A DNA stretch of 64,000 nucleotides from Microcoleus sp. (GCA_042408215.1 JAYFMW010000015.1:1-64000), one strand, 5' to 3'; counted from the first letter of the stretch, positions 13,817 to 29,892 are shown. Notes: a model not told the origin generated them from the sequence alone. Translations and numbers: made by a program.

Positions 13817-14926
13817 CTAAATTTCAGCAGAAAATTCAAGCTGCTCCATCACACGCACGCGAGGTACGACGTTTTTACAAAAATTTTGCATCTCAGCAAG
13901 CATTGGCCAACCTGACAAAATAAATTCACTAACACCTGCCGATTTATAAAGCATGAGTTCGTTTGCTACTTCATCAAAACTTCCTACCAGCGCCAATGCT
14001 GCTCCTCCACGATAAGGCACGGCCCCACTCCACAGATGGGGGCCGAGCCACTCTGAGTTGGCTTTTTCTGCTAATTCATAAGTAGCCTTATAAGCAACTG
14101 AATCTGACTTCTGAATCATATTGCTCATAAACTCCTTCCACTTGACATCTGAACTTTCTACAAGCCGAAATGCTGCTTCAATAGCCTCTTCACGTGTTTG
14201 ACGCGCAATGACTGACATCCGAAGTCCTGTGCGAATCATCGCTACACCGTTGCTCTGAGCGATCAAATTGTTACTTTCAGCAATTTTTTCTGGCGTATCA
14301 CCGTACCTCAGCCAACATTGTGCATGTTCAGATGCCGTATGATTGGCAATCTTGGAATTACCACTTAGGTATATTTTGGGCTGACGGACTCCCAAACGAA
14401 GCGAGGTAAACTTGGTGCTTAGCTGAGCGTCTTTTAGTTGGTAATACTTTCCTGCATAGTTCAATGAGCTTGTCGCATTCCAAAGACCTGAGCAAATTTC
14501 GAGATACTCGGCTGCTCGCTCGAATCGCTCATCATGCGAAAGCAAGTCCCCATAATACGCTTGCTCAATAGGATAGGAGCCACATATTATGTTGAGGCTG
14601 ATCCGACCATTTAAAAGATGCGAGAGCGTATTGACTTGCTGAACAAAAAGTGTTGGCGACATCAGACCCGGACGATAAGCCAGCATGAATCCTACTCGCT
14701 CGGTATGCGCTGATAGCCTTCCTAAAAGTACCATCGGATCAGGTATGTGAAAACTAAAGGCTGTTAATAAAGACTCGATTGGGAGTTTGTCAGCGCAACT
14801 GACAAACTCCAGATGAGTCTCAAGATTAATTCCGCCCGAACTATTTGCCTGAGATTCATTTTTCTTGGCTAGTTCAAGGGATAATAACCAATGAAATTCT
14901 AATTGATTCGACATATTTGATAGCAC
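13817..14926 (-). CDS. LLM-class (SsuD/luciferase-like) flavin-dependent monooxygenase
   Basis: AYRPGLMSPT, GRISLNII, ALVGSFDEVA, EFILSGWP; likely start ATG 14914. Confidence 0.88.
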   Translation of the reverse strand: MLSNMSNQLEFHWLLSLELAKKNESQANSSGGINLETHLEFVSCADKLPIESLLTAFSFHIPDPMVLLGRLSAHTERVGFMLAYRPGLMSPTLFVQQVNTLSHLLNGRISLNIICGSYPIEQAYYGDLLSHDERFERAAEYLEICSGLWNATSSLNYAGKYYQLKDAQLSTKFTSLRLGVRQPKIYLSGNSKIANHTASEHAQCWLRYGDTPEKIAESNNLIAQSNGVAMIRTGLRMSVIARQTREEAIEAAFRLVESSDVKWKEFMSNMIQKSDSVAYKATYELAEKANSEWLGPHLWSGAVPYRGGAALALVGSFDEVANELMLYKSAGVSEFILSGWPMLAEMQNFCKNVVPRVRVMEQLEFSAEI

Positions 14927-15003
14927 CTTCAGAAATTAGTTTCACAGGATTTATATAGGTCTAAGAGGATGTTTGGAAAGTCAAATGTTCTTTTGCTCAA
15001 CTC

Positions 15004-15978
15004 TCATAGGGATTTATCGCTCACGTTTTGAGTCTGCCATTCATACACCCAATACTCCAGTTCTTCAGCTCGCTGGTATCCTGCGATATCCAGGGACTCA
15101 AAGATGCGATCGCTAATAGGAAACATCCCACCAACCGCCAGATAACCCTTGCAATAAGCAAAGGAGCGTAACTCGCGCAGGAGAGTCGTTAAACCTTCAT
15201 CCGTGCCATTGGCATAACCAAGCCACAAAGTTTGATGAGCGCCTTTCCACAATGCTTCATTAACTCCTTCAAGGTAATCAATGGTATGGACAGGCATCTG
15301 AATAGCTAAAGCGAACATTTCATTGCCACGCTTTAGTCCCCATACTCGTCCTTCGTTGAGGTGATTCTTCAGTTGCTCGCAAGTTAGTTCTTGCCACTTA
15401 GTGGGGTCATTAAGGTAAAGATACGACTCTCGTGTAAACAAGTTAGAACTTGTGACTAATGCCCAAGCCGAATCAAAATCATCAATATCTAGATGTAACA
15501 GTTGTTTTACAGGAGAGTTTAGAGAGTCAGCTTTATAAGGAAAATAGCGACCGACTTTTTGACGACGTTGCCACTTACTATACTTGTCTATGAAAACATT
15601 ACTGGAGCAGGTGGAATAGCGTAAAACATTGATGTTTGTTTCTACAAAGAATCGCTCTATATGCTGCTCCAAAGTCAATAGCAGATGCAAACCTAGACCC
15701 TGCTGTCGATAATGAGGAGCTACTCGCAGACCTTGATACCAAGCTTCTCGCTCAGACATCAAGACGAATCCTAAAATGCCTATCGGTAAACTATCTACTT
15801 CAACTACAAAGACCCGACTGTTGGGGTCAGCTAACCACTTGTTCCAACCCAAGGGGAGAAAGTCTGATGAGTGTTGCCATGTCTGTTGGCAAATAGCCAG
15901 CACCGCCTCTTTGTCTTCAGCTCGTGCTAGGCGCACTTCTACGTCAGTAATTGTTTCTGTCTTAGCTTTTAATTCCAT
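15004..15978 (-). CDS. GNAT-family N-acetyltransferase
   Basis: GLRVAPHYRQQGLG acetyl-CoA motif A; start overlaps the upstream stop. Confidence 0.85.
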   Translation of the reverse strand: MELKAKTETITDVEVRLARAEDKEAVLAICQQTWQHSSDFLPLGWNKWLADPNSRVFVVEVDSLPIGILGFVLMSEREAWYQGLRVAPHYRQQGLGLHLLLTLEQHIERFFVETNINVLRYSTCSSNVFIDKYSKWQRRQKVGRYFPYKADSLNSPVKQLLHLDIDDFDSAWALVTSSNLFTRESYLYLNDPTKWQELTCEQLKNHLNEGRVWGLKRGNEMFALAIQMPVHTIDYLEGVNEALWKGAHQTLWLGYANGTDEGLTTLLRELRSFAYCKGYLAVGGMFPISDRIFESLDIAGYQRAEELEYWVYEWQTQNVSDKSL

Positions 15979-17099
15979 TTTCGCAATGCTTTCTTAAGTA
16001 ATTCAATTCCCTCAAGGATAGTTTCAGTTGGATAGCCAAGAGGAATTCTGACGTACCCGTCAGGAGAGGCTCTAAAAGTTCCAGAAGTTACCAGAACCAG
16101 CCCAAATTCAGTCAACATAAAGTCGGCAAATTCTTCAATATCTCGAACGGGAAGTTTGACAAAATACTGAAGTCCCCCTGCGGGATGCTCAAAGGCAATT
16201 TCAATCATCTGCGATAAAGCAGCACCAACAATTTCTCTATTCTTAACTACCCGTTCCACTAAGGATGGATTGCCTCGTTTCAGAATTTTTAGCGCTTGTT
16301 GTTGAGCGGGAGAGCAGATCCCTAGGCTTTCAATCGTTAACAAAGCTGTTAACGATTGAATGTTATCCGAACTAGAAATAATCCAACCAATTCTAAGCCC
16401 AGGAGCGGAAAAATTTTTACTCATCGAGTTGACTACATAAAGATTTTTCCAATTCCCTTGCAGGGATAGAGGCTGGATGAGCTGATTTTCTTCAAAAACA
16501 AACTCATCATAAACTAGGTCTGCAATTAAACTAGCTTGACAGCTTTGGGCTAACTGCAAAAGCTTTCTAAGGCAATCTTCTGAAAGAATTTCTCCTGTGG
16601 GATTGTTCGGGGTGTTGACAAATATGACTCGAAGATTGTCTGTGACTTTTTCTTGTAAGCTAGACCAGTCTATCTGATTGTTTTCTACCGAGAAGTATTC
16701 AACCCTATAACCGCACGTTTGTAATAGTTCTGCAATGCACCAAAATATAGGTGCTTGACACAGTGCTACAGCACCGGGACGGTAGAGAGAACGAAAGATG
16801 AGAGACAATCCATGTAAAGCACCATTGGTTACTAGCGCTTCCGAAGGTTGTACGTTGAGGTGATACTTAGAAAATTCCCGGTAACAAATGGCTTCGATGA
16901 GTTGGGAACTTCCCTGAGTCAATGGGTAATTTCCTACAAATGATAATTCACAGTTAAAATCATCAAACTCCGTTTCTAACCATTGAGACGTGTTGCCAGT
17001 TATATTTATGGGATGTTTAATGAAACGATGAGCGTACTGGAGTCTTTGTACGACCAGAGAGGTAGGGGAATTTAAATCAACAACTCTAGTTTTTACCAT
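15969..17099 (-). CDS. Fold-type-I PLP enzyme, GntC-like (gamma-hydroxyarginine cyclodehydratase-like)
   Basis: NTPNNPTG, DLVYD, NSMSKNFSAPGLRIGW are direct. The N-terminus LVVQRL...HPINITG...WLE and TNGALHGLSLIFR...PGAVAL.QAP match my recollection of GntC. Confidence 0.75.
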   Translation of the reverse strand: MVKTRVVDLNSPTSLVVQRLQYAHRFIKHPINITGNTSQWLETEFDDFNCELSFVGNYPLTQGSSQLIEAICYREFSKYHLNVQPSEALVTNGALHGLSLIFRSLYRPGAVALCQAPIFWCIAELLQTCGYRVEYFSVENNQIDWSSLQEKVTDNLRVIFVNTPNNPTGEILSEDCLRKLLQLAQSCQASLIADLVYDEFVFEENQLIQPLSLQGNWKNLYVVNSMSKNFSAPGLRIGWIISSSDNIQSLTALLTIESLGICSPAQQQALKILKRGNPSLVERVVKNREIVGAALSQMIEIAFEHPAGGLQYFVKLPVRDIEEFADFMLTEFGLVLVTSGTFRASPDGYVRIPLGYPTETILEGIELLKKALRKWN

Positions 17100-17131
17100 T
17101 TTATGAGCCTTATAATAGTTGCCTCAATCAC

Positions 17132-17402
17132 TTTCTTGGCGTAAATACGAGTGCTAGTTGTGGCAATTCGTCCATTCAACCCCCATCGTGGTTTATCAGT
17201 CTTATTTTCCATAGTACACTGTTTTTCCGCCGGATTTAAAAGCTACCCAGAACATCTGATTATTCCAACCAGTCGGTAATTGTTCTCTCCAGGTTTCTGG
17301 CAACCAACCATGAACAAACTTGAGTTTTGCCAGGATATAAAAGAAAGCCAGTTTAAGAGAAAACCTCCAATCAAATAAGGAAGAACTTGTTGTTGCTGTC
17401 AT
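17132..17402 (-). pseudogene. Internally deleted third copy of the halogenase gene
   Basis: The first 64 codons are nearly identical to 21279-22493 and are joined out of frame at 17210/17209 to the ENKTDK.RWGLNGRIATTSTRIY.KK segment. Confidence 0.9.
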
Positions 17403-17672
17403 GTGTAAGTATCTTATATTTTATAGCTAGCAGGGCGACGAAAGAGGCTGAAAAGCATCCGTTGTTTTGGGTTTATATGTTTCGTATGCCTTCGGTCTAC
17501 CTAAAATTTATAGAAACAACTTTATTCTCTAAGACTTCCCCTTCGGAACCGGGAAAAGGCACCTAAATCCTATGTGCCTTTTCCAGAAAGAATTTCAAAA
17601 TTTTAAAAACCTAAACAATGGACGAAACCTTTGGCCAGTACGCATTAGCAAAAATAAGGTGCGGTTGCCCTA

Positions 17673-18824
17673 TTAATCCTCGTCAATTGGATTGTCAAAT
17701 CCGTAGTCTTCAAGTTGGCTATCCCGTCGTATATCGCAGGTGACGCAGTGAAATGAGCCGCCAAAACTATAGACATGACGAAAAGCAACCGGAATGACTT
17801 CAAATCCTAAATCTTTGAATAATTTATGCATTGGCTCTTCTTGCTTTTCCACGATTACCCGCTTGGGATCTAAGATCAAGATATTCATGGACAACCACGG
17901 GCCCGAACTATAAAGTGGATAATTATCGGGAATAGTGGGTTGCACGGCTGTCACAACATCCCATCCGGCTTTCTTAAAAATGTCGATTTGATAACAGGGT
18001 CTGTCGGGATTGGTTAAAACTAATCCAGGTCTTAGGGGTACAAATGTAGCATCTATATGGATTGGGTTTGAATCTCGGAACTTCAGTATATGAACCCGAA
18101 AGCGTTCACCCAGATGATTTCTGAGCCAAGTAATGCCTAGTTTATTGGTAACTTGACTGCGCTGAACAAATAAGTCTCGTCCGCAACGAGTAATATCAGC
18201 AGCATCAAAGCAAGGTTCAAACTCAGTTGTTACAAAACGCCCAACTTCTGCTAGTGCGTACCGATCTTCAACAGTTTCCATAGGATAGTCAAAGTCATAC
18301 AATTCATCGCTCATTAAAGGTTTGGGAGCTGTCGTCCATTTAGCACCCTGTTTCAAATATTCCTTCATTAAAGACCGATAAGCTCGATATTCAAAAAACC
18401 TTGATCGCCACGCCATTGGCGCTTCAATAATCTCATTGCCGATAACAGTTAGTATATCTCGCGGCATAACGGCATGCAGACCTGTGGCTTCAAAATCTGG
18501 AGTTTTATAGCTCTCAGAAAAATCAATAATATCCGGTCGCCTTACAGTTACCCCTTCTCCTTCCAAAACCCGGCAAAACTCCTCCAATTCCTTTGATGCT
18601 GGTTCTATCATTTCTTGAGGGTATGGACAACCACCATACTTTTGGAAAAACCACCAGTTTTTAGGATTTGAACTTGCTTTGAGGGGAACATCGAACTGAG
18701 GAACACAGGCTCCCTCAACGCGACCCACAATAATTTCTTGCAGCGTATCCCATTCATTGTAGCTATTAACTATTGGCAGGGTTTTAGTGGAAGTCAAGCT
18801 TTTGGGATGATTGTTTTTCAACAT
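17673..18824 (-). CDS. L-arginine amidinotransferase (AGAT/CyrA-like)
   Basis: [38 protein letters not shown] (Asp-His-Cys). Confidence 0.93.
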
Positions 18825-18915
18825 TATATTGTCCTCGTAATAAAATACATTTGCAAAAACTGGGCTTAAAAATGCTCATGTCTTACGGAAGCATGAATAT
18901 TTTCTATTTCTCAAA

Positions 18916-19989
18916 TTAGAGGTTTTTCTTAACATCTAACCTGGCAGTTTTCTTGCCCCTATCTAACTGATTTACTTGCCGAATTTCTAGCATTTTTGCT
19001 AACGCTATAACTTGCCTAAATAAACTAACCCAACCCTTTTCTTTATTTCGAGAGGCGTAAACTTTATCTTTCAGCAAAATCTGGTGCGCTTGCTTGTACT
19101 GCCACGAAGGAATACCAGGAAAAAGATGATGCAATAAGTGATAACCTTCCCAATGCATTCCTAAGAAAAAATTAGCCACGGGAGAACAAAGCCGATTTCG
19201 GGACATAAACAAATCAACCAATTTTAGATTTTCCATCCTGCCTTCAGTTTCCTCCGGAGTTACTTCCATTAACGGGTAATGCTCGAACAACTCAATAAAC
19301 GCTCCAATCCAATTAGCCGTTGTTAGCAGAGGAACCCACCAAAACAGCAGTAACAACCACCCCCAGCCCAGCCAGATAAACAGTGAATTCAACACAATCA
19401 TATAGACTAGGCGCACTAGCTTCTCTCGAAATTCCTCCTGCGAATTCAAGATTCTGTTTTTGAGTAAATAGCGCAGGTAAATCAGAGTGGTTGCTGGGTG
19501 AACAATGTTCCATAAATAGCGGCGCACGTTGTTAGCTTCTAAATTCGCTCCGTACAACCCACTCTCCTGTAACCCAACGTAATCTGGGTCTAGCTTGGAG
19601 TGCCCCAAATGACCGTGATGCTGGAAAACGTGGGAGGAGCGATAACCTGAATAACTTTGCAACACCAGATAACCCGAAGGAAACGTCCCCAAGACAAAAT
19701 TGAGTGCTTTATTCTTTGCCAAGGTTTTGTGCGTTGACTGGTGGAGTAAATCTGCTAAAGCACGCATCCTGCCACCAATGATCAAAATCGCAACTAAGTA
19801 AACCATTTCGCCTACGACTCGTGGCCAGTGCTGCCACGTTAACCAAGAAGCAAGCGTTGCAAGAGCAATAATCGCCCAATCTTCAGCGAGTTGCACGAAC
19901 CCGTGCCAATTATCAAGCTCAAAGCAACAACTTAACTCTCTGAAGATTGCGGCGTCGAAGCGATAACGCTTAATTTTTATCATTAGCAA
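18916..19989 (-). CDS. Membrane fatty-acid-desaturase-fold di-iron enzyme, GntB-like hydroxylase
   Basis: His boxes LHQSTH, HVFQHH, EH, YHLLHH; LDNWHG and NFVLGTF.SGYL.LQ motifs recalled from GntB-type proteins. Confidence 0.75.
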   Translation of the reverse strand: MLMIKIKRYRFDAAIFRELSCCFELDNWHGFVQLAEDWAIIALATLASWLTWQHWPRVVGEMVYLVAILIIGGRMRALADLLHQSTHKTLAKNKALNFVLGTFPSGYLVLQSYSGYRSSHVFQHHGHLGHSKLDPDYVGLQESGLYGANLEANNVRRYLWNIVHPATTLIYLRYLLKNRILNSQEEFREKLVRLVYMIVLNSLFIWLGWGWLLLLFWWVPLLTTANWIGAFIELFEHYPLMEVTPEETEGRMENLKLVDLFMSRNRLCSPVANFFLGMHWEGYHLLHHLFPGIPSWQYKQAHQILLKDKVYASRNKEKGWVSLFRQVIALAKMLEIRQVNQLDRGKKTARLDVKKNL

Positions 19990-19995
19990 CAGTTC

Positions 19996-21195
19996 CTATT
20001 TAGTCGAAGCAGAGTCAAGCCTCTTTTCTAATTTTTCTGTGTATCTGTTATATCCAAAACGATCTTCACCTCTGAGCAGAACTGCTCTCCACTTGTCCAA
20101 ATTAATGTTTTTGAGATGTAAGTACTTGTTATGATGCAACCCTCCTAACATTTTCTTGGTGTAAATACGAGTGCTAGTTGTGGCAATCCGCCCATTCAAT
20201 CCCCATCGTGATTTATCAGTCTTATTTTTGAGGGAACCGTGAATCACTCGCTCAGTAAACAGATAAAACTGCCCAGCTTTCATTTCGATGTAATGGGGTT
20301 GTGGCAACTCGCCTGGGTAATCGATCTGAAGATCCGGCGCACCCTCTAGGTTGGCTGTCTCTACGTTGATCGGATAAATTTCATTAGTTCCGGGCAGAAT
20401 CATCATGCAGCCATTCTCTTTGTTGGCATCGGTTAAAGCAATCCAGCAGGTTAGTTGGTAAAGCTCCTCATGGTCTTCTGGAGTCACTATCGATTCTTGC
20501 TGATTTAGCAAAAACCAAGTGCTGGCTTGATGTAATGTTGTTTCCTGACCGGGCTGAACTTCAAAAAATTTAGTTCTCCACAAAAGAAGATTCGGTCCTA
20601 AAAGTTGAGCCGCTCGTTCAGTAATCGCAGGATGTTTAAACAGATTTAATAATCGATTGTTATCTAAATGACGATCGATTTTATTGATCGTATAGAAAAA
20701 ATGTTTTTTATATTCTTCTGTCAATTCTAGTTTCCAAGGTGTCACTTCTAAACCACTTCTACCAGTCGTGTCAAATTCATAATCTCCGGCAGTGAAAGAA
20801 AAATGTTGTGATTCAGTTTCCAGCAAGAAATTGACGAGATATTGCTGCAACTCCTCCATTTCATCTGAAGGTAGTAAATCGAATGGGCCGACATAGCCAT
20901 TCTCATAGAAACCACGGATCTGTTCCTCAGTCATCTGAAATTCAGGGGCAACCGATGCTTTAGGTTTGTAAGATTTCGGTTCTTTTAATCGGCAATAGTA
21001 ATCATAGTATGCTGTTTTCCCGCCGGATTTAAAAGCCACCCAGAACATCTGATTATTCCAACCAGTCGGTAATTGTTCTCTCATTTTTTCTGGCAACCAA
21101 CCATGAATAAACTTGAGGTTGGCCAGGATATAAAAAACACCCAGTTTAAGGGAAAACTTCCAATTAAATAAGGAAAAATTTGTTGTTGCAGTCAT
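19996..21195 (-). CDS. Fe(II)/2-oxoglutarate enzyme with the halogenase HxA motif (SyrB2/BarB-like), paralog 2
   Basis: LHQASTW, WIALTDANKENGC, MKAGQF...IHGS, RWGLNGR. Confidence 0.85.
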   Translation of the reverse strand: MTATTNFSLFNWKFSLKLGVFYILANLKFIHGWLPEKMREQLPTGWNNQMFWVAFKSGGKTAYYDYYCRLKEPKSYKPKASVAPEFQMTEEQIRGFYENGYVGPFDLLPSDEMEELQQYLVNFLLETESQHFSFTAGDYEFDTTGRSGLEVTPWKLELTEEYKKHFFYTINKIDRHLDNNRLLNLFKHPAITERAAQLLGPNLLLWRTKFFEVQPGQETTLHQASTWFLLNQQESIVTPEDHEELYQLTCWIALTDANKENGCMMILPGTNEIYPINVETANLEGAPDLQIDYPGELPQPHYIEMKAGQFYLFTERVIHGSLKNKTDKSRWGLNGRIATTSTRIYTKKMLGGLHHNKYLHLKNINLDKWRAVLLRGEDRFGYNRYTEKLEKRLDSASTK

Positions 21196-21278
21196 GTGTC
21201 AGTCTCCTATATTTTCTAGTTAATGGGCGATGAAAAGGCTGAAAAGCTTACGAAGTAATCAAGTATCGATATCATTTC

Positions 21279-22493: not shown

Positions 22494-22546
22494 GTGTAAT
22501 TCTCCTAAATTTTATATCTAGCGGGGCAATTTGTTCATGTTGGAAT

Positions 22547-23896
22547 TCATTGAAGAACTTCCTGTTCTAAAAGATACTGAAGCGCCTCAATGACTCGGTA
22601 GGCTGAAAGCTTGCGCGAGGTTTGGGTGAGAAATTCAGAAACCACATCGCTGGCTTTTTTGGAGGCGGTACACAACTGACAAAGCAATCGCAAATCTTTG
22701 GCTGGTAAATACATATTTAACCTTAATTTGCTGGCGATTTGAGGCGATTCTCGAAAACTCAGGAGTTTTGAGGGTGAAAGTGTAATTTGACCTCTTCTTG
22801 GTTGCCAGAAAGGGGAGTTGGGCCAACGGGTTTCTTGGGCATAGTATTTGCACCTATCTTGCAAATAAACTTCAAACTGATGCAGAGTTTGAGATTCGTA
22901 TGCGGCAAGAGCGTCCCGATCGCCGTCAAAATAACGGGCGATCGCAAAGGCAGCCTTAATTCCTGACTGTAAAGCCTTGTAAATGCCAGCAGAAGAAAGC
23001 GGGTCAAGAGTACAAGCCGCATCTCCAACAGCCAGCCAGCCATGACCTGTCATCCGATCTAAGTACTGGGAAAAGGCGGGCTGAATCAAAAGCCTGGATT
23101 GAGAAGAGGCGTGAGAGGTTAACTCCTGAATATACTGCGTTTTCTTTAAATAAGCTGTCCAGGTTTCTGGCCGGAAGAGCTTATGTTTTCGCAGCAGTTC
23201 GCTATCGGTCATTAAGGTGATGATCGCACGGTCATTAGGCAGACGGGCGGCGTACCACCAGCCAAATTCCGTTGCTTCTACCAAAGTGTGGTAATTTTTT
23301 GGAGCCTCTTTTTCCCAGGTAAACACTGAGGCAACAGCGAGCAGGCGATCCATCCTGACTTTGTGTGCCCCAACCCTGGTGGCTAAAATACTTCGATGTC
23401 CGCTCGCATCGACTACGAAGGTCGTTGTCACCTGGAATTGGCAACCGTTTTTGGTTCGCAGTGTCAGTCTCCATTTGCGATCGGCAAGTTGGTTACAGCC
23501 TACCACTGTTGTCTCCCGCATTAAAATCGTACCACATTCCTCTGCTGCATTAGCCAGCGCTTTATTGAATCTTGCCCGATTCAGATGCCAACCGTTCCCC
23601 CCAGGATAGAAAAAGAAATCCTGAAATCCCAATTGGGTTCCACCCCATGCAGAACTATTTCCCAATGAGGGGAGGTGACCATCTCGTTCAAAGGAATCAA
23701 GCACTCCTAATTGCCCTAAAACAGTTCGTATATTGGGGGGAACTGTTTCACCAATGCGAAAGTCATCCAGGCGGGATTTTTCTAGGAGGGCAACGCGCTT
23801 TTCCCCTTGCTTTTGCAGAGCGATCGCGGTTGCTGCTCCGGCGACACCACCACCGACGATCGCCAGATCGATTTCTGGTGGCAGATTGTTATTCAT
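22547..23896 (-). CDS. lodB: LodB/GoxB-type FAD-dependent CTQ-maturation flavoprotein
   Basis: GGGVAG, RIGETVPP, GWHLNRARF, VDASG, GDAAC.LDPLSSAG; overlaps the end of the lodA-like gene. Confidence 0.85.
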   Translation of the reverse strand: MNNNLPPEIDLAIVGGGVAGAATAIALQKQGEKRVALLEKSRLDDFRIGETVPPNIRTVLGQLGVLDSFERDGHLPSLGNSSAWGGTQLGFQDFFFYPGGNGWHLNRARFNKALANAAEECGTILMRETTVVGCNQLADRKWRLTLRTKNGCQFQVTTTFVVDASGHRSILATRVGAHKVRMDRLLAVASVFTWEKEAPKNYHTLVEATEFGWWYAARLPNDRAIITLMTDSELLRKHKLFRPETWTAYLKKTQYIQELTSHASSQSRLLIQPAFSQYLDRMTGHGWLAVGDAACTLDPLSSAGIYKALQSGIKAAFAIARYFDGDRDALAAYESQTLHQFEVYLQDRCKYYAQETRWPNSPFWQPRRGQITLSPSKLLSFRESPQIASKLRLNMYLPAKDLRLLCQLCTASKKASDVVSEFLTQTSRKLSAYRVIEALQYLLEQEVLQ

Positions 23897-25796
23897 AAGG
23901 CAAATTTCTTTTTAGTTCGGTCAAATCTGAACTGTCCCGACTGCGGTATCCCTGTGGGCTATCGAAGACTTCGTTTCCGGCTGTTGGTGTTGGTCGAAGA
24001 GGCAAAGTTCTTTCTACTTCTGCGAAATAGGAACCTTCCCAATTGATTGCTTCTAGGGCTTCCTTGTATTCTTCTACTGTTGAGATATCAAAAACGAATC
24101 CGAGTTGATGCCACTTCTCTACCATCTCTAAATCATCGGCAAATGCAATGTAATCGGGGGCTTGCTGGTCGTAGTCGGTTCCCAGCCAAGGAACTTGTTC
24201 ATTTTTGATTTTTTCGGAAGGAGCGTCTCTTAGCTGGGGATTGGGTGGCAAATACACAAACTCCGGTCGTTGGGCAGGCCACCACCAGACAAAACGGCCA
24301 TCAATGGGTTGGGAGGAACATTCATTGAAATCTGCCTGCCAAGGCAATGCCATGAACTTGCTGATATCTCCTGGCTCTAGCCCTTCTTCCAAATTCATGT
24401 CTAAACTAAGCCGAGCCATTGGCTTCATTTTTTTATGTTTGATGCGGAAGAGTTCCGAGTATATCTTGGGGTTGCGTGAAATCCAAGTCATTTCAATACC
24501 AGGAGAAAAAGCTCCCCCTACACAGTTTTCCAAAGTGGCACGAGTTAGATGTTCGCCAGGATCTTCTTCCTGAGAATTAATTTCGTTGTTTGTAAACTTC
24601 CCCTTTGCCCACTGTTCAAGCAGAAAATATTGGGTCTGGGTCAAGGTCAGAAATTTGGCTGATTTCTGGCTTGCCCCGGTCGCATCATCCCCCGCTAAAT
24701 ACGGCATCATAGGATAGCCCGTTGTGGGAGATTTCAAAGTATTGTTCATACTCGGCGGTCGGACTTGGCTAAAGAAGTATTGCCGCATACTGTTGTAGCG
24801 TTTATCGGAATTTCCCAACAAATCGTAGTCAAAGGTGTGAGGTTTGGGCGGCATGGCGGCAACCCAAGGAAATAGGGAAGCACGTTCTAAGATGGGTCGG
24901 ATTTCCTGGTTGAAATCTGGGTGATAATCCTGATTCCAAAAACCATTTTTATAAATATAATTATCCCCATCCTGACGATATCCCATCTGCCGAACTGCGA
25001 CATCAAATATGGTGTCGTAAAGCGTAACCAGATTGAGAAGCTGCGGGGCATAGGCAGGGGGGGCAACTAAGACCCAAGCAGGGACAACTTCAATCGTTTG
25101 GCCATTATCGAACATCACTGTTGCTGTAACTGGTCCATCGGAGGTGTCATCCCACCAGCCATCATTATTGGCATAATCGGTGATAACAGGATTTTGGTTT
25201 GAACCGGAATGACCGAATCCTCCCACTACAATCAGGCGTCCTTGAGAATCGGTATGTATCTTTCCTAGAGAGTCGATCCCATCGGGTTTTAAACCCTTCG
25301 GAGGGAAGGTCATGGGATATTCAGTTTGAGAAGATCGGGAGAAATTGGCAGATTGATTTGGTCCGGTCAAAATCCTGCCACCCGGATCGATAATAAGTTC
25401 GTACCTTTGTGCGGGATCGGAAATACTGCTGTTGCGTAAAGGATGGTTGGAAGCATACCCCTGTTCGCCGTTTTTGGTCTGGAACTCATACCAGATAGCT
25501 TTTTTATTTGCCAAGCGAACAGTCCATATAATTTTGCTTACCTCAAGCTGTCCAATCTTCTCCCCAACCACAATTTCTTGCGGTTCACCACCTGACTCAG
25601 GGTAGCGATAAATACGAAAACGCGCTCCTTGCCGACGTAGATTTTTGTCGCTATCTCGGAAGTCACTGGGTTGAAACTCGCAGCCATCGAGCCGAATGGG
25701 AAGTCCCCCTGCTTCTTCTGGGGCTAGATAATACTCTTCACTATTTCCAACGCGGGCAACACCAATGGAAGGAAAAATTTTATAAGTATCTGCCAT
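23889..25796 (-). CDS. lodA: LodA/GoxA-family cysteine tryptophylquinone amino-acid oxidase
   Basis: IFPSIGVARVGNS, NNDGWWDDTSDGPV, GGAFSPGIE, MALPWQADFNEC (CTQ Cys), WWPAQRP (CTQ Trp). Confidence 0.92.
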   Translation of the reverse strand: MADTYKIFPSIGVARVGNSEEYYLAPEEAGGLPIRLDGCEFQPSDFRDSDKNLRRQGARFRIYRYPESGGEPQEIVVGEKIGQLEVSKIIWTVRLANKKAIWYEFQTKNGEQGYASNHPLRNSSISDPAQRYELIIDPGGRILTGPNQSANFSRSSQTEYPMTFPPKGLKPDGIDSLGKIHTDSQGRLIVVGGFGHSGSNQNPVITDYANNDGWWDDTSDGPVTATVMFDNGQTIEVVPAWVLVAPPAYAPQLLNLVTLYDTIFDVAVRQMGYRQDGDNYIYKNGFWNQDYHPDFNQEIRPILERASLFPWVAAMPPKPHTFDYDLLGNSDKRYNSMRQYFFSQVRPPSMNNTLKSPTTGYPMMPYLAGDDATGASQKSAKFLTLTQTQYFLLEQWAKGKFTNNEINSQEEDPGEHLTRATLENCVGGAFSPGIEMTWISRNPKIYSELFRIKHKKMKPMARLSLDMNLEEGLEPGDISKFMALPWQADFNECSSQPIDGRFVWWWPAQRPEFVYLPPNPQLRDAPSEKIKNEQVPWLGTDYDQQAPDYIAFADDLEMVEKWHQLGFVFDISTVEEYKEALEAINWEGSYFAEVERTLPLRPTPTAGNEVFDSPQGYRSRDSSDLTELKRNLPYE

Positions 25797-25881
25797 GTCT
25801 GCCTCCTTTTCTTATGATTTTTGTCAACAGTTTGCCAATTGCTGTTTCACTCTGATGCAAGCGAGGGCTTCTTTAAGGATT

Positions 25882-27147
25882 TCACAAACGCTCTCTCAGG
25901 GAGCTTCCTTGAGTTTTTTGGTTGATGTCTTGAAGGGTGTTATCAACTGCGCTTACAGTAGCTGCAATGGGTCGTAAATCAACATCTAGACTAGCGGCTG
26001 AATCTAACTCTTTTTTTAACTGCTCTACTTTGAGGATAAGCTCATCCAAAGAAGTCGAACTGTACTGAAAACAGGGACCCGCATTCGGACCAAGAGTTCC
26101 AGCTTTTTCCTGAATGGGAATTTGCATTAACTGAGTGGCTAGTGTGGTAAAGATGCTTTGCATTATGGGGACAATCACTGCAAAGTAGGGGTCAGTTTCT
26201 ATTACTTTGTCTGGACCAAAGGTCTCTTGCAATGCTCTGACTAAAAGACCATAACAGTCGTTGAAGACTTCTGCAAGCCTTATAGCCCACTGGTTTTGAA
26301 ACTTTTCTGGCGAGGGATTGGGCAGCATGGGATAAGTTTCTCCAATAGGAATCGTCCCGTCTGCCAAGTCTTTGAATTTAAAGAAATGGGACATATCGAA
26401 GGGAGTTCCTAGTATCGGACCGTAGGTTTCATCGTTACGAAGACCATAGTAGTTATAGGTTCCCCAAGGTTGGTCGGGTTGATACTCTCGGTTCGGGGGT
26501 ACTGCACCCTCTCCCTGTTGCATGATTTGATTAATCGCCTCTTTCGCCGTGTCCAAATTCTCGACAAGGATGGCTTTTCCACCGCCACTGCCAAAGTATA
26601 AGTTGGTTCGCTGCAATTCAGTTTGGTACTTAAAGTCCGGTGGAAGCTTTTCAAACTCCTTTTTAATGGCTTCATAGAATTGCCCAATTGTCTGAGATTT
26701 ATCGTCGTCTACTGTTGTGTCCAACGGTGCGGGTCTTTCGATAGTCATAAAGGTTTGTAGCATCAATTCCGGTGATGCTGCCATAAGTTGGACATAAACA
26801 CCACCTGCCACTTGATAAGGCATAGAGTTGGGATAGTCCCAAATCTCGCCTACTAACTTGGGAATACCCCCAACGGAATTCATCAGGTTACAGGCAAGGT
26901 TAAGGTGTAGCATTTCTTCCAATACCACACTTCTGAATGTCTGATAAGCCTGAGAAGTTTTATCTTTAATAGAATATAGAGCTGTGAGGTAGGGAGGAAT
27001 GGTAAAAAACTCTATGATTAATGCCTTCTGAAGCATCGTCTTTATCGTCTTTACCGTCTCGTCAGGAGAATCGCCGGAAGAAGGGTTTACCTTCTCAATT
27101 CGCGGTTGGCGTTGAGAAAAAATCGCTTGGCGTTTAGAAGTAGTCAT
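25882..27147 (-). CDS. Ferritin-like di-iron domain protein (VioB/PF12902 type)
   Basis: IEFFTIPPYLTALYSI, EEMLHL...NL, TIGQFY, QGEG, SHF.KF. Confidence 0.85.
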   Translation of the reverse strand: MTTSKRQAIFSQRQPRIEKVNPSSGDSPDETVKTIKTMLQKALIIEFFTIPPYLTALYSIKDKTSQAYQTFRSVVLEEMLHLNLACNLMNSVGGIPKLVGEIWDYPNSMPYQVAGGVYVQLMAASPELMLQTFMTIERPAPLDTTVDDDKSQTIGQFYEAIKKEFEKLPPDFKYQTELQRTNLYFGSGGGKAILVENLDTAKEAINQIMQQGEGAVPPNREYQPDQPWGTYNYYGLRNDETYGPILGTPFDMSHFFKFKDLADGTIPIGETYPMLPNPSPEKFQNQWAIRLAEVFNDCYGLLVRALQETFGPDKVIETDPYFAVIVPIMQSIFTTLATQLMQIPIQEKAGTLGPNAGPCFQYSSTSLDELILKVEQLKKELDSAASLDVDLRPIAATVSAVDNTLQDINQKTQGSSLRERL

Positions 27148-27262
27148 TGTATTGTTCCTTTGTGTTGCAAACAGTCAAGATACTCGTTATTAGGCGGGAT
27201 AACTTGGCCCCATAAGCTAGAGCAACCCCTCCCTAAGAATTGCGCCGTCAAAGCGATAACGC

Positions 27263-28808
27263 TCAACCCTTGACATTAACCGCACTCTTGGCAACGCTGT
27301 CAGCTTTACCATTGATTGATTGGGGGTTAACTTGCGGCACAGAGGAAGGCACGGCTGTTTTGATAAATTCGTAATAAATCGACAAGAACACCTCATCTAG
27401 CGGCACATCGCGCATCATCTGCTTCGCCTTTTCCCGCAGCTTTTCGTGTGCCGAGTTGTCGAGAACTGCCATTTCAAACAGCAGGCGAAGATAGGACTCT
27501 AGTTCGCGGGTACGGTTGTAAGGCAAAAAGCCACCGGGTTCCCGTACTGTTGCCATCAAATCGCGGGCACCCACCTCCAGCAACCGCTGGAACGGATTTT
27601 CATTGCGACGACGTTCAATCATCGGCGAGAACACATTCTCCGTGGGGGGTTGTTTGCCAAGTAGCTCTGCCGTCACAACCTGAGCAACTAACGGAGCCAT
27701 CAGCATCCCATTCCTGTAGGTTCCCGTCGCCACGAACAACCCTGGAAATGCAGTTTTTCCAACTAAAGGAATCCCATCAGCGGGAATGGGACGCAATCCA
27801 TAACGCATTTCTTCGATTCTGGTATTTCGCAGCGCAGTATTGAACTGGCTAGCCCCATCACCAAGAATATAGAGGAGGTCTTGAGGTTGAACTCCCAAAC
27901 TCATTTGGGCAGTCAAGCTCAAAGAATTGGTTGCCCCCCACGTATAAGCGTCCCTCACTGCGAGGAACAACGTGCAATCCGCACGCAAAGGAACGATTGG
28001 GGGTGCGAAGCGTGTGGGGAAAATGGGGAGCATCTGCCAGAATACAACTGGTGCCTTTGCCAAATAACACCGCAGGCAGCTTCAGCTTGGAAAACAGCGT
28101 CTCACCGATAACTTCTGGGACTTTCGCTCCCGCACATACCACCACATGAGGCGTGGAAATGCAACCGTGGTTTTCGGTTTGGATGTTCCATGTGCCTTCA
28201 GTGTCCCCAAAATTGATCGAAACAACTTTATCATCTAAGACTTCCCCTTTGGGGTGTAGTGCGATCGCCACCTCAAGGGCTGATAGTAAGTTGTGAGAAT
28301 CAACTGACCCTTCACCAGGGATAAACAACGCTTGGTAAGCCGGACAGGAATTGTTGGCATCTAAACCGGGAACGTCGTCTGGATCGACCCACTCATGGGG
28401 TTCATTATAGGTTTCTAGTTGGGCTTTCATGCGCTTGAGATTGGCCCGATCGCGATCGCCTGCACTGTTGCCAATAATAAATGTTCCTTGTGTGGTAAAT
28501 ATCTCTTGCCCCGATGCCTCCCTCACGCTAGAGAGCCAATCTGGGTAAATCTTCTGCGCTTTGATCCGAAACTCCAGTTCAAGGCGTTCTTCAAGAGTCT
28601 CCTGGTCGGCAGTAATCTCGCCGTATGCGCCCAACATAGCACCACTAGCCAGCGAGGCTCCATCACTATTCTGCTGCTGGGGATAGATCAGCACAACCTT
28701 CAAACCGGAACGGGCTAGTTCAAAGGCGATGGATTTACCAATAATTCCACCACCAACAACTACGGCATCATATGAATGATGGCTGGTGACGTTGTTCTGT
28801 AAAGTCAT
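27263..28808 (-). pseudogene. ThiO/DAO-family FAD amino-acid oxidase split by a +1 frameshift (real or sequencing error)
   Basis: The ORF 27858-28808 has GGGIIG and ASLASGAML; the ORF 27263-28063 has GLRP and ATGTYRNG. Removing one base of the C6 run at 27934-27939 joins them as RLYVGATN. Confidence 0.85.
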
Positions 28809-28865
28809 TTCTTTTCTGCCAATTCTGTGAAACCTTTCTAGTTACTTAAAATAAAACACTGTTCA

Positions 28866-28896
28866 ATCTTACGGGATTGTTGAAGGCATTTGTCAA
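28866..28896 (-). promoter_or_regulatory. Candidate sigma70-type promoter of the biosynthetic operon
   Basis: TTGACA-19 nt-TAAGAT, about 60 bp before the first ATG; the spacer is long. Confidence 0.35.
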
Positions 28897-28923
28897 AAAT
28901 ACTAATCCTTATTTTCCAATAAA

Positions 28924-29592: not shown

Positions 29593-29892
29593 AGCAAGGA
29601 ACGCTCTAGATTCTTAGACCCCAAAACAGGCAGTTAATAAAAGAAGGCTTTTATGCAGATAGCAGAGGGGAGAAGGACAAGGGCTCAATTACTGTCAGCG
29701 GACATTCACCAAACAACTTCACTATTAATTATTCAGTTGTTTAGCTCAACGAGAAATAGATAAAGTTGGTATGTTTGTGTAAAGTTATATTGCTGCGATC
29801 CTCTTACTGCACAAGTAGTTGATTTTGTCAATATACTAAATTGGTCAATTAATTGCCCAACTAGAGCTAAAGATTGGTTCCAAGAGGCGCGA

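What the first reader, a model, noticed from the sequence alone, without database searches (positions are those of the whole stretch)
13817..28808. NRPS-free operon predicted to make a halogenated cyclic-guanidine metabolite (guanitoxin-related early steps, different tailoring)
Seen: ten co-oriented enzyme genes (one frameshifted) plus a gene remnant, with tight coupling (lodA/lodB overlap, PLP enzyme/GNAT overlap, 6 bp between halogenase and desaturase). No adenylation, carrier, PKS or obvious precursor-peptide gene is present. Known: GntB and GntC convert L-arginine to L-enduracididine in guanitoxin biosynthesis; amidinotransferases make guanidino compounds; HxA Fe/2OG enzymes halogenate. 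Inferred: the product is a small chlorinated, N-acylated cyclic guanidine. I recognise no published cluster with this combination, and I see no kinase, aldolase or heme N-hydroxylase of the gnt pathway here.
Basis: partly seen in the sequence, partly recalled or inferred. Interest (0 to 1): 0.92.

Follow-up and report, generated by a model that had tools for sequence, protein, structure and literature searches.

The report
Orphan chlorinating guanidine/amidine gene cluster, Microcoleus
A strain-variable row of enzyme genes in a mat-forming cyanobacterium probably makes a small chlorinated, nitrogen-rich amino-acid derivative without any peptide- or polyketide-assembly machinery, but it is a mosaic, it is not a guanitoxin-type pathway, and its product is unknown.

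Summary
Eleven co-oriented minus-strand genes and a halogenase remnant lie at 13817-28808, with the stated overlaps. No NRPS, PKS or carrier gene lies in the 64-kb window.

- The desaturase-like gene is a sister-clade relative of GntB (261 bits, cut-off 380).
- The PLP enzyme is not GntC. It passes the MrsB/ArgM arginine-aminotransferase model and lacks five GntC signature residues.
- The frameshifted "DAO" belongs to the Orf1 family, FAD enzymes that add a glycine-derived N-formimidoyl or iminoacetyl group to an amine.
- Both PhyH genes are SyrB2-type HxA halogenases of a small, N-terminally extended cyanobacterial clade.
- The amidinotransferase is AGAT-like (E 2e-160).
- The ferritin-like/LodA/LodB block is a separable module. 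It was lost by independent deletions in both syntenic genome records, but is present in contigs of two sequencing runs.
- The frameshift is one extra G, private to this assembly.

The cluster is rare: GntB-like genes were found in 4 of 401 cyanobacterial genomes. It sits in a hypervariable locus. My literature searches found no described equivalent.

Best reading: an orphan, carrier-free pathway to a hydroxylated or chlorinated, N-acetylated guanidino/amidino amino-acid derivative. A cyclic guanidine is not supported.

The parts
27263..28808 (-). Orf1-family FAD enzyme (glycine-oxidase-like, predicted N-formimidoyl/iminoacetyl transferase). It is broken here by one extra G at about 27939.
   Evidence: Pfam DAO on both pieces. 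Intact 514-aa orthologues exist in L017 and L018. The indel was located. The best PDB match is Orf1 7xqa, E 2.6e-59 over residues 13-440. The Orf1 C281 motif is conserved in 115 of 115 family members. Contigs of runs X1 and X2 lack the extra base.
25882..27147 (-). Ferritin-like protein (PF12902), part of the separable three-gene oxidase module.
   Evidence: Pfam 2e-44. The Atlas gives generic PF12902 clusters. PDB 3hl1 matches at 1e-10. The gene is absent from L017 and L018.
23889..25796 (-). LodA-like quinoprotein amine/amino-acid oxidase.
   Evidence: LodA_N 1.6e-68 and LodA_C 8.9e-47. NF038172 scores 392.7 bits, below its cut-off of 600. LodA-LodB pairs stand alone in 3 other cyanobacteria.
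22547..23896 (-). LodB-like flavoprotein maturase. It overlaps lodA by 8 bp.
   Evidence: NF038171 scores 311.3 bits, below its cut-off of 400. Its last 237 bp survive in L018 next to the FAD gene.
21279..22493 (-). Halogenase 1: SyrB2-type Fe/2OG enzyme with an HQA motif and an N-terminal extension of about 90 aa.
   Evidence: PhyH 1.8e-25. SyrB2 2fct matches at 1.8e-31, with H-Q-A aligned to SyrB2's H-Q-A and the distal His conserved. Model pLDDT is 79.5 and the best fold match is SyrB2, E 2e-24.
19996..21195 (-). Halogenase 2: tandem paralogue, 78% identical to halogenase 1, with the same HQA motif.
18916..19989 (-). GntB-like membrane di-iron hydroxylase of a sister clade to GntB.
   Evidence: NF041365 scores 261 bits, below its cut-off of 380. 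The His residues of the three boxes (H83, H87, H120, H279, H284, H287, H288) are invariant across the 8 aligned sequences. The enzyme groups with L096, L098 and L099, not with the GntB-passing proteins. It is 42% identical to the GntB of a complete gnt cluster.
17673..18824 (-). L-arginine-dependent amidinotransferase (AGAT/CyrA/SxtG family).
   Evidence: Human AGAT 1jdx E 2e-160, SxtG 6u1r 2e-104, StrB1 1bwd 8.5e-67. The residues aligned with AGAT Cys, His and Asp are conserved (read from the alignment).
17117..17402 (-). Remnant of a third halogenase copy, with its 5' end and a 3' piece surviving and the interior deleted.
   Evidence: It is present in L017 and absent in L018, where the AMT-PLP gap is 76 bp.
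15969..17099 (-). MrsB/ArgM-type class I/II PLP aminotransferase (arginine / 2-ketoarginine type).
   Evidence: TIGR04544 scores 367.8, above its cut-off of 350. GntC scores 193.9, below 415. The nearest named relatives, at 40-46% identity, are annotated as beta-methylarginine aminotransferases. The GntC signature residues are absent.
15004..15978 (-). Two-domain GNAT N-acetyltransferase. It overlaps the PLP gene by 10 bp.
   Evidence: Acetyltransf_1 1.4e-09. There are weak leads to NAT16/Hisat_C.
13817..14926 (-). SsuD-like FMNH2-dependent luciferase-like monooxygenase.
   Evidence: Bac_luciferase 4.4e-44. SsuD 1m41 matches at 6.4e-41. All NCBIfam equivalog scores are far below their cut-offs.
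9820..13625 (+). Convergent OpuA-type ABC transporter (ATPase, permease, OpuAC binding protein). It is a conserved neighbour; whether it belongs to the cluster is uncertain.
   Evidence: Pfam. It lies next to the cluster in L017 and L018 and next to the FAD-gene/GntB-like pair in L095 and L096. The 99.4%-identity block shared with L017 runs from 22530 to 12490, that is, into the OpuAC gene.

Best explanation
This is an orphan, carrier-independent specialised-metabolite gene cluster of a Microcoleus-type (Oscillatoriales) cyanobacterium. It sits in a hypervariable chromosomal locus.

Its conserved core has eight genes:
- an Orf1-family FAD enzyme, predicted to oxidise glycine and pass the C-N unit to an amine as a formamidine or iminoacetyl group
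- two tandem SyrB2-type halogenases that work without a carrier protein
- a membrane di-iron hydroxylase of the sister clade of the arginine gamma-hydroxylase GntB
- an AGAT-type amidinotransferase, which makes a guanidino group from L-arginine plus an amine
- an arginine/2-ketoarginine-type aminotransferase
- an N-acetyltransferase
- a flavin monooxygenase

Inferred product: a small, nitrogen-rich derivative of a basic amino acid (Arg, homoarginine, Lys or Orn) that carries guanidino and/or amidino groups. It would be hydroxylated and/or chlorinated at unactivated carbons and N-acetylated.

The ferritin-like/LodA/LodB genes are a self-contained quinoprotein amine-oxidase module lodged inside the row. 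They are dispensable in relatives.

In this assembly the first gene carries a +1 frameshift, so the pathway may be incomplete here.

Shown: gene identities, motifs, synteny, and the variable presence of parts. Inferred: the substrates, the order of steps and the product.
For: Gene families and motifs.

Same gene order in other records. The FAD gene, Hal1, Hal2, GntB-like, AMT, PLP, GNAT and LLM lie in the same order, with the convergent OpuA genes beside them, in 2 of the 76 loci returned by the genome-contig scan: L017 (99%) and L018 (97%).

Occurrence in sequencing runs. 19 of 23 listed runs, from 10 studies, hold part of the core. 12 of them hold at least half of its sampled words.

No carrier, NRPS or PKS gene in the window.

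The arginine theme recurs in four independent families:
- AGAT-like AMT
- GntB-like hydroxylase
- TIGR04544-passing aminotransferase
- an argininosuccinate synthase next to a clade-mate of the hydroxylase in L098

Orf1 second-site residues are conserved in the intact orthologues: C281, T298, R342, R368 and E426 (residue roles from PMC10156733, passages read).

The FAD gene and the GntB-like gene are also adjacent, with overlapping matches, in 3 metagenome contigs that have no halogenases. This points to a functional pair.

The halogenase clade occurs without carrier genes in several other cyanobacterial contexts.
Against: - No product is known and no enzyme was assayed.
- The locus is a mosaic. 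Identity to L017 jumps from 93% to 99.4% at the Hal1 border. The block contains a decayed halogenase copy, a frameshift, and, in relatives, deletions. Some genes may therefore be passengers, or the pathway may be decaying.
- Members of the same halogenase clade sit beside PKS, KASIII, desaturase and sulfotransferase genes elsewhere. A lipid-type substrate is therefore not excluded.
- The amidinotransferase resembles glycine-specific AGAT, whose product guanidinoacetate has no obvious consumer here.
- The aminotransferase family's usual methyltransferase partner is not found in the genome.
- Transcription is not shown. RNA-library contigs lie on parts of the row, but none joins two genes, and DNA carry-over is possible.
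- MIBiG and antiSMASH could not be consulted.
Confidence: 0.55

Rival explanations
1. GntB- and GntC-like enzymes convert L-arginine to L-enduracididine, which is then chlorinated and N-acylated to give a halogenated cyclic guanidine.
For: The hydroxylase is a clear GntB relative (E 1.5e-77). The PLP enzyme belongs to the broad class I/II group that also contains GntC, VioD and OrfR. A keto-acid route like MppP/R/Q (as recounted in PMC10367076) could in principle be imitated by hydroxylase plus oxidase plus aminotransferase. Chlorination could also supply a leaving group for ring closure.
Against: - The hydroxylase scores 261 against a cut-off of 380 and lies in a different clade from the GntB-passing proteins.
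- The PLP enzyme scores 193.9 against a cut-off of 415. It lacks E9, S25, S26, T84 and H250 and is only the fourth-best GntC-model match in its own genome.
- A real GntB/GntC-type pair (405 and 389 bits) exists at the same locus in the metagenome contig L100 and looks different.
- No MppR-like cyclase was seen among the cluster's Pfam and NCBIfam hits.
Confidence: 0.15
2. The row is not one pathway. It is a patchwork of cassettes piled up in a recombination hot spot: the LodAB module, a halogenase duplication, the FAD/hydroxylase pair, and the AMT-PLP-GNAT-LLM set. It is partly decayed and makes no single product in this strain. The halogenases and the desaturase-type enzyme might act on lipids.
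For: - The gene content between the WD40/orf222 flank and the OpuA genes differs among the window, L017/L018, L038, L094, L096 and L100.
- There are independent deletions of the LodAB block, a halogenase remnant, a frameshift and an IS element cutting the L096 version.
- Minor contigs in X1 and X2 join halogenase repeats.
- Clade-mates of the halogenase lie in lipid and PKS contexts.
Against: - The eight-gene core keeps the same order and intact reading frames in L017 and L018 at 93-100% protein identity.
- Spacing is tight, with overlapping stop and start codons.
- The enzymes share a chemical theme (arginine, guanidine, amidine).
- The hydroxylase is far closer to GntB (E 1.5e-77) than to lipid desaturases or hydroxylases (E 3e-08 at best).
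Confidence: 0.2
3. The genes serve the uptake-linked metabolism of a compatible solute or nitrogen store, for example synthesis or breakdown of an N-acetylated or guanidino osmolyte together with the adjacent OpuA-type transporter, and not a bioactive secondary metabolite.
For: The OpuA-type ABC transporter is a conserved convergent neighbour and lies inside the 99.4% block shared with L017. GNAT plus aminotransferase plus PhyH-type oxygenase recalls ectoine/hydroxyectoine genes, and the ectoine hydroxylase model gives a weak hit of 1.3e-10.
Against: - The PhyH enzymes lack the carboxylate ligand (HQA), so they are halogenase-type, not hydroxylase-type.
- The cluster is rare even within the genus, unlike a housekeeping osmolyte pathway.
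- OpuA genes also flank unrelated cassettes at this locus.
Confidence: 0.07

Closest known systems
Guanitoxin (gnt) pathway, early steps GntB/GntC
   Same: A FA_desaturase-type membrane di-iron enzyme related to GntB stands in a carrier-free cyanobacterial cluster next to a class I/II PLP enzyme.
   Different: Neither protein reaches its NCBIfam equivalog cut-off (261 vs 380; 193.9 vs 415). The PLP enzyme lacks the GntC signature residues. GntA and GntD were not found in the genome. For comparison, a complete gnt-type cluster (GntA-GntI) was seen in genome G075.
MrsB/ArgM beta-methylarginine aminotransferases (TIGR04544)
   Same: The PLP enzyme passes the curated cut-off (367.8 vs 350) and is 40-46% identical to proteins with that annotation.
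   Different: The partner 2-ketoarginine methyltransferase (TIGR04543) is not in the cluster, and its best genome match scores 22.9 bits against a cut-off of 425. The enzyme therefore probably transaminates an arginine-like acid for another purpose.
Orf1 of BD-12 biosynthesis ('N-formimidoyl fortimicin A synthase', PDB 7xqa; PMC10156733)
   Same: The length (514 vs about 491 native residues) and architecture agree. E is 2.6e-59. The Cys of the 'FACGLH' motif and T298, R342, R368 and E426 are conserved.
   Different: E312 is Q, E313 is D and F316 is Y. Identity is roughly one third, as read from the alignment. The acceptor here cannot be an aminoglycoside or a streptothricin. The copy in the window is frameshifted.
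SyrB2/CytC3/BarB-type Fe/2OG halogenases
   Same: The HxA facial-triad variant, the distal His and the fold agree. Tandem paralogues recall BarB1/BarB2 (recalled, not from a call).
   Different: There is no carrier protein partner. A conserved N-terminal helical extension of about 90 aa is found in only 34 representatives among 1.84 billion proteins. The scores against TIGR01762 (155 and 147 bits) are below its cut-off of 226.
AGAT/CyrA/SxtG amidinotransferases
   Same: The protein is very close to human AGAT (537 bits over 359 residues). The residues aligned with the catalytic Cys, His and Asp are conserved.
   Different: It is not followed by a PKS or NRPS that would take up guanidinoacetate, as it is in cylindrospermopsin, nor by sxt genes. 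The acceptor amine is unknown.
LodA/LodB and GoxA/GoxB quinoprotein oxidases
   Same: Both LodA Pfam domains are present, with an overlapping downstream LodB-type flavoprotein gene. A PF12902 ferritin-like gene also accompanies fungal lodA/lodB genes (PMC4417212, passages read).
   Different: The scores are below the equivalog cut-offs (392.7 vs 600; 311.3 vs 400). The substrate is unknown. The block is embedded in a biosynthetic row and variably present.

Membership tests
Guanitoxin pathway (gnt) | GntB equivalog: L-arginine gamma-hydroxylase, NF041365 score of at least 380 | tested here: not met
   The score is 261 bits. Clade-mates L096, L098 and L099 score 245-265. True-type proteins L093, L094, L038 and L100 score 394-495.
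Guanitoxin pathway (gnt) | GntC cyclodehydratase: NF041364 score of at least 415, and residues E9, S25, S26, T84, H250 | tested here: not met
   The score is 193.9 bits. The aligned residues are V, T, G, L and L. The general PLP residues K219, D186, Y189, N158, R227 and R346 are conserved.
Guanitoxin pathway (gnt) | Late enzymes GntA (N-hydroxylase) and GntD (beta-hydroxylase) present | tested here: not met
   GntA has no match at E <= 0.001. The best GntD match scores 27.5 bits against a cut-off of 345. The genome is 99.98% complete. GntE-GntJ were not searched genome-wide, and none is in the cluster.
SyrB2-type Fe/2OG halogenases | His-X-Ala/Gly in place of His-X-Asp/Glu, plus a distal His | tested here: met
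   HQA and the distal His align with SyrB2's ligands. In the clade, 13 of 16 members have HQA, 2 have HQN and 1 has HQS. None has D or E.
SyrB2-type Fe/2OG halogenases | Substrate presented on a carrier protein encoded nearby | tested here: not met
   There is no PP-binding domain among the scanned ORFs of the window. The intergenic gaps in the row are at most 115 bp, apart from the 573-bp stretch that holds the remnant.
SyrB2-type Fe/2OG halogenases | NCBIfam TIGR01762 'chlorinating enzyme' score of at least 226.3 | tested here: not met
   The scores are 155.2 and 147.1 bits.
Amidinotransferases (AGAT family) | Full-length similarity and the catalytic Cys-His-Asp | tested here: met
   1jdx matches at E 2e-160 over residues 16-374. 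The query has C, H and D at the positions aligned with AGAT C407, H303 and D254. The identity of the triad is recalled, not taken from a call.
MrsB/ArgM beta-methylarginine system | Aminotransferase above the TIGR04544 cut-off | tested here: met
   The window protein scores 367.8 against 350. The L018 orthologue scores 363.1.
MrsB/ArgM beta-methylarginine system | Partner 2-ketoarginine C-methyltransferase (TIGR04543) | tested here: not met
   The best match in the whole genome scores 22.9 bits against a cut-off of 425.
Orf1-type N-formimidoyl/iminoacetyl transferases | Second-site Cys (C281) with T298, R342, R368 and E426, on a glycine-oxidase fold of about 490-510 aa | tested here: met
   This holds for the intact orthologues. 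In the window's own copy the frame breaks about 9 codons after the Cys motif. Whether classical ThiO lacks this Cys was not tested here.
LodA/LodB quinoprotein oxidase | Equivalog scores (LodA at least 600, LodB at least 400) and the CTQ-forming Cys and Trp | tested here: inconclusive
   The scores are 392.7 and 311.3 bits, below the cut-offs. Both Pfam domains are present. The CTQ residues were not checked by alignment.

The most novel reading that the evidence does not exclude
The N-terminally extended halogenase clade would be a family of carrier-independent radical halogenases. In this cluster they would chlorinate a free guanidino amino acid (arginine or homoarginine type). No arginine halogenase turned up in my literature search. 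Together with an Orf1-type amidine-forming enzyme, which would be the first outside actinomycete aminoglycoside and streptothricin pathways, the cluster would make a new class of chlorinated guanidine/formamidine metabolites in benthic Microcoleus mats.
Probability: 0.25. Interest if true: 0.8.

Novelty: new variant of a known kind. Interest (0 to 1): 0.58.

Why it matters
Carrier-free pathways to modified basic amino acids, such as guanitoxin, enduracididine, beta-methylarginine and the Bes alkyne pathway, have each yielded new enzyme chemistry. This cluster could do the same for four reasons:
- It joins four such enzyme types in a combination that I could not find described.
- It offers two candidate free-substrate halogenases from an uncharacterised clade.
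- It places an Orf1-type amidine-forming enzyme in cyanobacteria.
- It occurs in mat-forming Microcoleus, whose metabolites are of environmental interest.

The natural variants could serve as ready-made comparisons for metabolomics: with or without the LodAB block, with or without the halogenases, and with the first gene intact or frameshifted.

Tried and rejected
- **Promoter and terminator scan.** It found 21 promoter-like sites against 27.6 +/- 5.2 expected, and 26 terminator-like sites against 17.0 +/- 4.9 expected. This says nothing useful about operon structure.
- **RNA-library runs X17 and X19.** Short contigs lie on parts of Hal1, LodB, LodA, the ferritin-like gene and the FAD gene. 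X17 also shows depth in bins over GNAT, PLP and the GntB-like gene. No contig joins two genes. Many parts are uncovered, and DNA carry-over cannot be excluded. I do not count this as evidence of co-transcription, and the uncovered parts are not evidence of silence.
- **The search of earlier findings by place.** It returned nothing.
- **Atlas and PDB look-ups.** The ferritin-like protein gave only generic PF12902 matches. The GNAT gave weak NAT16/Hisat_C leads (E 0.015).
- **Search with the halogenase N-terminal 95 residues.** It found only the same halogenase family and fragments of it (34 representatives). No other domain family turned up to explain the extension.
- **tblastn of all cluster proteins against the 76 loci around halogenase relatives and against 6 loci around GntB-like relatives.** Apart from L017 and L018, no locus shares more than the query gene plus, in L095-L097, the FAD gene.
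- **Idea that the PLP enzyme works in a beta-methylarginine pathway.** Rejected, because no methyltransferase was found.
- **Idea that the frameshift is shared or programmed.** Rejected, because it is absent from L017, L018, X1 and X2. Whether it is a true mutation or a homopolymer assembly error in this genome could not be settled, because the run closest to the window (X1) differs from it in that gene.
- **Literature.** None returned a described cluster of this composition. Subscription journals and MIBiG were not searched.

Full report
**1. What is there**

Between 13817 and 28808 the minus strand carries an uninterrupted row of genes. Pfam and NCBIfam identify them, from 5' to 3', as:
- a FAD 'DAO' gene split into two overlapping ORFs
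- a PF12902 ferritin-like protein
- a LodA-like quinoprotein oxidase and its LodB-like flavoprotein (8-bp overlap)
- two PhyH-type Fe/2OG enzymes
- a FA_desaturase-type membrane enzyme, 6 bp downstream of the second PhyH gene
- an amidinotransferase
- a 573-bp gap
- a class I/II PLP aminotransferase
- a GNAT (10-bp overlap with the PLP gene)
- a luciferase-like monooxygenase

The gap holds the 5' end (residues 1-64, 92%) and a 3' piece (residues 326-358, 76%) of a third halogenase copy. None of the ORFs scanned across the 64-kb window has an adenylation, condensation, ketosynthase or carrier domain.

Other features of the window:
- an rRNA operon at 885-6020
- an integrase at 6263-6964
- an IS605-type transposase at 36300-37499

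**2.

*Halogenases.* Both PhyH proteins carry H-Q-A where hydroxylases have H-x-D/E, together with the distal His. They align best with SyrB2 (E 1.8e-31) and CytC3. An AlphaFold model built on a 16-sequence alignment has mean pLDDT 79.5. Its best fold matches are SyrB2 (E 2e-24, TM 0.76 on the target) and CytC3. The two proteins are 78% identical tandem paralogues.

They carry a conserved, largely helical N-terminal extension of about 90 residues. A search of 1.84 billion representative proteins with that extension alone found only 34 proteins at E <= 0.001, nearly all of them halogenases of this type or fragments of them. Of 16 clade members, 13 have HQA, 2 HQN and 1 HQS, and none has an acidic ligand.

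*Amidinotransferase.* It matches human L-arginine:glycine amidinotransferase at E 2e-160 over 359 residues, then SxtG (2e-104), HsvA and StrB1. The positions aligned with the AGAT catalytic Cys, His and Asp are conserved. The identity of that triad is recalled, not taken from a call.

*Hydroxylase.* The desaturase-type enzyme hits the GntB model at E 1.5e-77, but with 261 bits against a cut-off of 380. An alignment with seven relatives shows the His residues of the three boxes conserved. It also shows two clades:
- the window enzyme with L096, L098 and L099 (245-265 bits)
- a GntB-passing clade of L093, L094, L038 and L100 (394-495 bits)

*PLP enzyme.* It is not GntC. It scores 193.9 bits against GntC (cut-off 415) but 367.8 bits against TIGR04544, the MrsB/ArgM beta-methylarginine aminotransferase model (cut-off 350). 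Its nearest named relatives, at 40-46% identity, carry that annotation.

I aligned it with the GntC of a complete gnt-type cluster that I found in genome G075 (GntA-GntI all recognised). It keeps the general PLP and carboxylate residues K219, D186, Y189, N158, R227 and R346. At the positions that the GntC study singles out (E9, S25, S26, T84, H250; PMC10367076, sections 9 and 10 part 1 read) it has V, T, G, L and L.

Three other genes of the same genome match the GntC model better, at 328.7, 284.5 and 254.6 bits. The methyltransferase partner of MrsB/ArgM is not found in the genome (best 22.9 bits against 425). GntA and GntD are not found either.

*The frameshifted 'DAO'.* This is the most informative correction. 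Its intact 514-aa orthologues (L017, L018) match PDB 7xqa, 'N-formimidoyl fortimicin A synthase' (Orf1 of BD-12 biosynthesis), at E 2.6e-59 over residues 13-440. Ordinary glycine oxidases reach only 3e-27.

According to PMC10156733 (abstract and passages read), Orf1 oxidises glycine at the FAD site. It then uses a second site built around C281, with T298, E312, E313, F316 and E426, plus R342 and R368 at the glycine site. There it transfers a glycine-derived N-formimidoyl or N-iminoacetyl group to an amine.

The alignment shows the 'FACGLH' Cys motif, T298, R342, R368 and E426 conserved, with E312 as Q, E313 as D and F316 as Y. In 115 aligned family members of 440-560 aa, taken from 120 listed homologues, the counts are:
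- Cys: 115 of 115
- T298: 114 of 115
- R342: 114 of 115
- R368: 115 of 115
- E426: 102 of 115

*Remaining genes.*
- The LLM is SsuD-like (6.4e-41).
- The GNAT gives only weak leads to NAT16/histidine N-acetyltransferase.
- The ferritin-like protein is a generic PF12902 member.

**3. The frameshift**

Relative to L017 and L018, the window has one extra G in a G-run at about 27939, roughly nine codons after the Cys motif. Logan contigs of two runs from two studies (X1, X2) cover 22376-29172 and 22376-29056 in one piece each. Both lack one base at 27939 or 27935. The frameshift is therefore private to this assembly. I cannot tell whether it is a mutation or a homopolymer error.

**4. Conservation and anatomy of the locus**

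A scan of 185,579 species genomes with a halogenase alignment returned 76 loci. tblastn of all cluster proteins against them found the cluster in only two: Microcoleus sp. S13_C3 (L017, 99%) and Phormidium sp. R1S1 (L018, 97%). Both have FAD gene-Hal1-Hal2-GntB-like-AMT-PLP-GNAT-LLM and the convergent OpuA-type transporter. Both lack the ferritin-like/LodA/LodB block.

blastn shows that the two deletions have different end points:
- In L017, window 27216 joins to 22530.
- In L018, window 27240 joins to 22768, which leaves the last 237 bp of lodB.

These are independent losses of an ancestral block. That block is present, contiguous with the FAD gene and Hal1, in the X1 and X2 contigs.

LodA-LodB pairs occur in 4 of 401 sampled cyanobacterial genomes, the window's own included. 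In the three others they stand without any other cluster gene and without the ferritin-like gene. A PF12902 gene also accompanies fungal lodA/lodB (PMC4417212, passages read). I therefore treat this block as a separable oxidase module.

Further details of the locus:
- L018 lacks the halogenase remnant, and its upstream flank differs. This places the upstream border of the cluster at the FAD gene.
- Identity to L017 is 93% upstream of Hal1 and 99.4% from 22530 to 12490. This marks a recently exchanged block that reaches into the OpuAC gene.
- In three metagenome contigs (L095-L097) the FAD gene (87%) and the GntB-like gene (79%) are adjacent, with overlapping matches and no halogenases. An IS element follows, and then PKS, sulfotransferase and carnitine-acyltransferase genes.

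Other Microcoleus-type records carry different cassettes at the same WD40/orf222 flank:
- a GntB-passing hydroxylase with a cystathionine-gamma-synthase-like PLP enzyme and PKS genes (L038, L094)
- a GntB/GntC-type pair scoring 405 and 389 bits (L100)

The locus is thus a hot spot in which cassettes are exchanged.

The GntB-like gene is rare. It was found in 4 of 401 cyanobacterial genomes at E <= 1e-40, the window's own included. Among 24 same-genus genomes, only one had a halogenase of this clade, at 46% identity.

The core is nevertheless widespread in nature. 19 of 23 listed runs, from 10 studies, hold part of it, and 12 of them hold at least half of the sampled words.

**5. How it most likely works**

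*Shown:* the enzyme families, their catalytic motifs, the lack of any carrier, the conserved order of the eight-gene core, and the separability of the LodAB block.

*Inferred:* the pathway acts on a free basic amino acid.
- The amidinotransferase builds a guanidino group on an amine from arginine. Alternatively arginine itself is the skeleton.
- The GntB-like enzyme hydroxylates an unactivated carbon.
- The two halogenases chlorinate.
- The aminotransferase shuttles between the amino and the 2-keto acid.
- The Orf1-type enzyme adds a glycine-derived formamidine or iminoacetyl group to a free amine.
- The GNAT acetylates.
- The LLM oxidises.

The order of steps, the regiochemistry and the acceptor amines are unknown. 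Ring closure to a cyclic guanidine is possible chemically, by displacement of OH or Cl, but no GntC-, VioD- or MppR-type cyclase is present to support it.

The same halogenase clade also sits in lipid, PKS and sulfotransferase contexts and in asparagine-synthase/TauD contexts elsewhere. Its substrate range is therefore broad, and a non-amino-acid substrate cannot be excluded.

**6. Comparison with what is known, and novelty**

The closest systems are:
- gnt (the hydroxylase only)
- MrsB/ArgM (the aminotransferase only, without its methyltransferase)
- Orf1 of BD-12 and fortimicin
- SyrB2/CytC3/BarB halogenases (without their carrier)
- AGAT/CyrA/SxtG
- LodAB

None of my ten literature searches returned a cluster of this composition. 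A 2025 review of cyanobacterial guanidine natural products (PMC12371840; outline and term passages read) lists cyanobactins, aeruginosins, aeruginoguanidines, microguanidines, saxitoxin, cylindrospermopsin and guanitoxin, and holds no occurrence of 'halogenase' or 'Microcoleus'. MIBiG, antiSMASH and subscription journals could not be consulted.

I rate the cluster a new variant of a known kind: an orphan, carrier-free amino-acid-tailoring cluster. It is interesting mainly for its uncharacterised halogenase clade and for the Orf1-type enzyme in a cyanobacterium. The interest is tempered by the unknown product, the mosaic and partly decayed state of the locus, and the broken first gene in this assembly.

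Noticed in passing
L100:2955-5065 (metagenome contig); also L038:6864-9826 and L094:8614-10912: At the same WD40/orf222 flank, other Microcoleus-type records carry different cassettes. One is a GntB-passing hydroxylase (405 bits) with a GntC-like PLP enzyme (389 bits). The other is a GntB-passing hydroxylase with a cystathionine-gamma-synthase-like PLP enzyme next to PKS, carnitine-acyltransferase and HMG-CoA-synthase genes.
   Followed up: partly
G000:C17:640244-641296, C17:608034-609086, C28:62038-63084 (loci L107-L109): The window's genome has three further PLP enzymes that match the GntC model at 328.7, 284.5 and 254.6 bits, below the cut-off of 415. They could be arginine-cyclase-like enzymes of other clusters.
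   Followed up: no
L093 (G075:C1:3526000-3545999): A complete guanitoxin-type cluster (GntA, B, C, D, E, F, G, H, I recognised by NCBIfam) lies in a 5.25-Mb single-contig cyanobacterial genome. Its GntC scores 394 bits, just under the cut-off of 415.
   Followed up: partly
window 17385/21184 and 20107/21394: Minor contigs join halogenase repeats. In run X2 a contig skips 3798 bases, from the remnant to the Hal2 start. In run X1 a contig skips 1286 bases, from Hal2 to Hal1. These are either recombinant deletion variants in natural populations or assembly artefacts at repeats.
   Followed up: no
window 12490-22530 vs 27216-29600: Identity to Microcoleus sp. S13_C3 (L017) changes sharply, from 99.4% to 93%, at the Hal1 upstream border. 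This suggests a recent recombination tract that covers Hal1 through LLM and most of the OpuAC gene.
   Followed up: partly
L013:15512-16696, L032:10001-11224, L022:12641-13753: Three members of the N-extended halogenase clade have HQN or HQS instead of HQA. The two HQN proteins sit in asparagine-synthase/TauD-GBBH contexts.
   Followed up: no
window 885-6964 and 36300-37499: A complete rRNA operon (16S, two tRNAs, 23S, 5S) is followed by a phage-type integrase gene. An IS605 OrfB/TnpB-type transposase lies further along.
   Followed up: no
window 12330-12560: The long TTG-started ORF of the OpuAC gene begins with a stretch that reads like a translated short repeat (PLLKGDLGG-type). The true start is probably a downstream Met.
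   Followed up: no
window 41540-43285: An aromatic amino-acid ammonia-lyase (PF00221, E 8.7e-125) stands next to a pentapeptide-repeat protein, an AAA_35 protein and a globin-coupled cyclase. It is outside the cluster.
   Followed up: no
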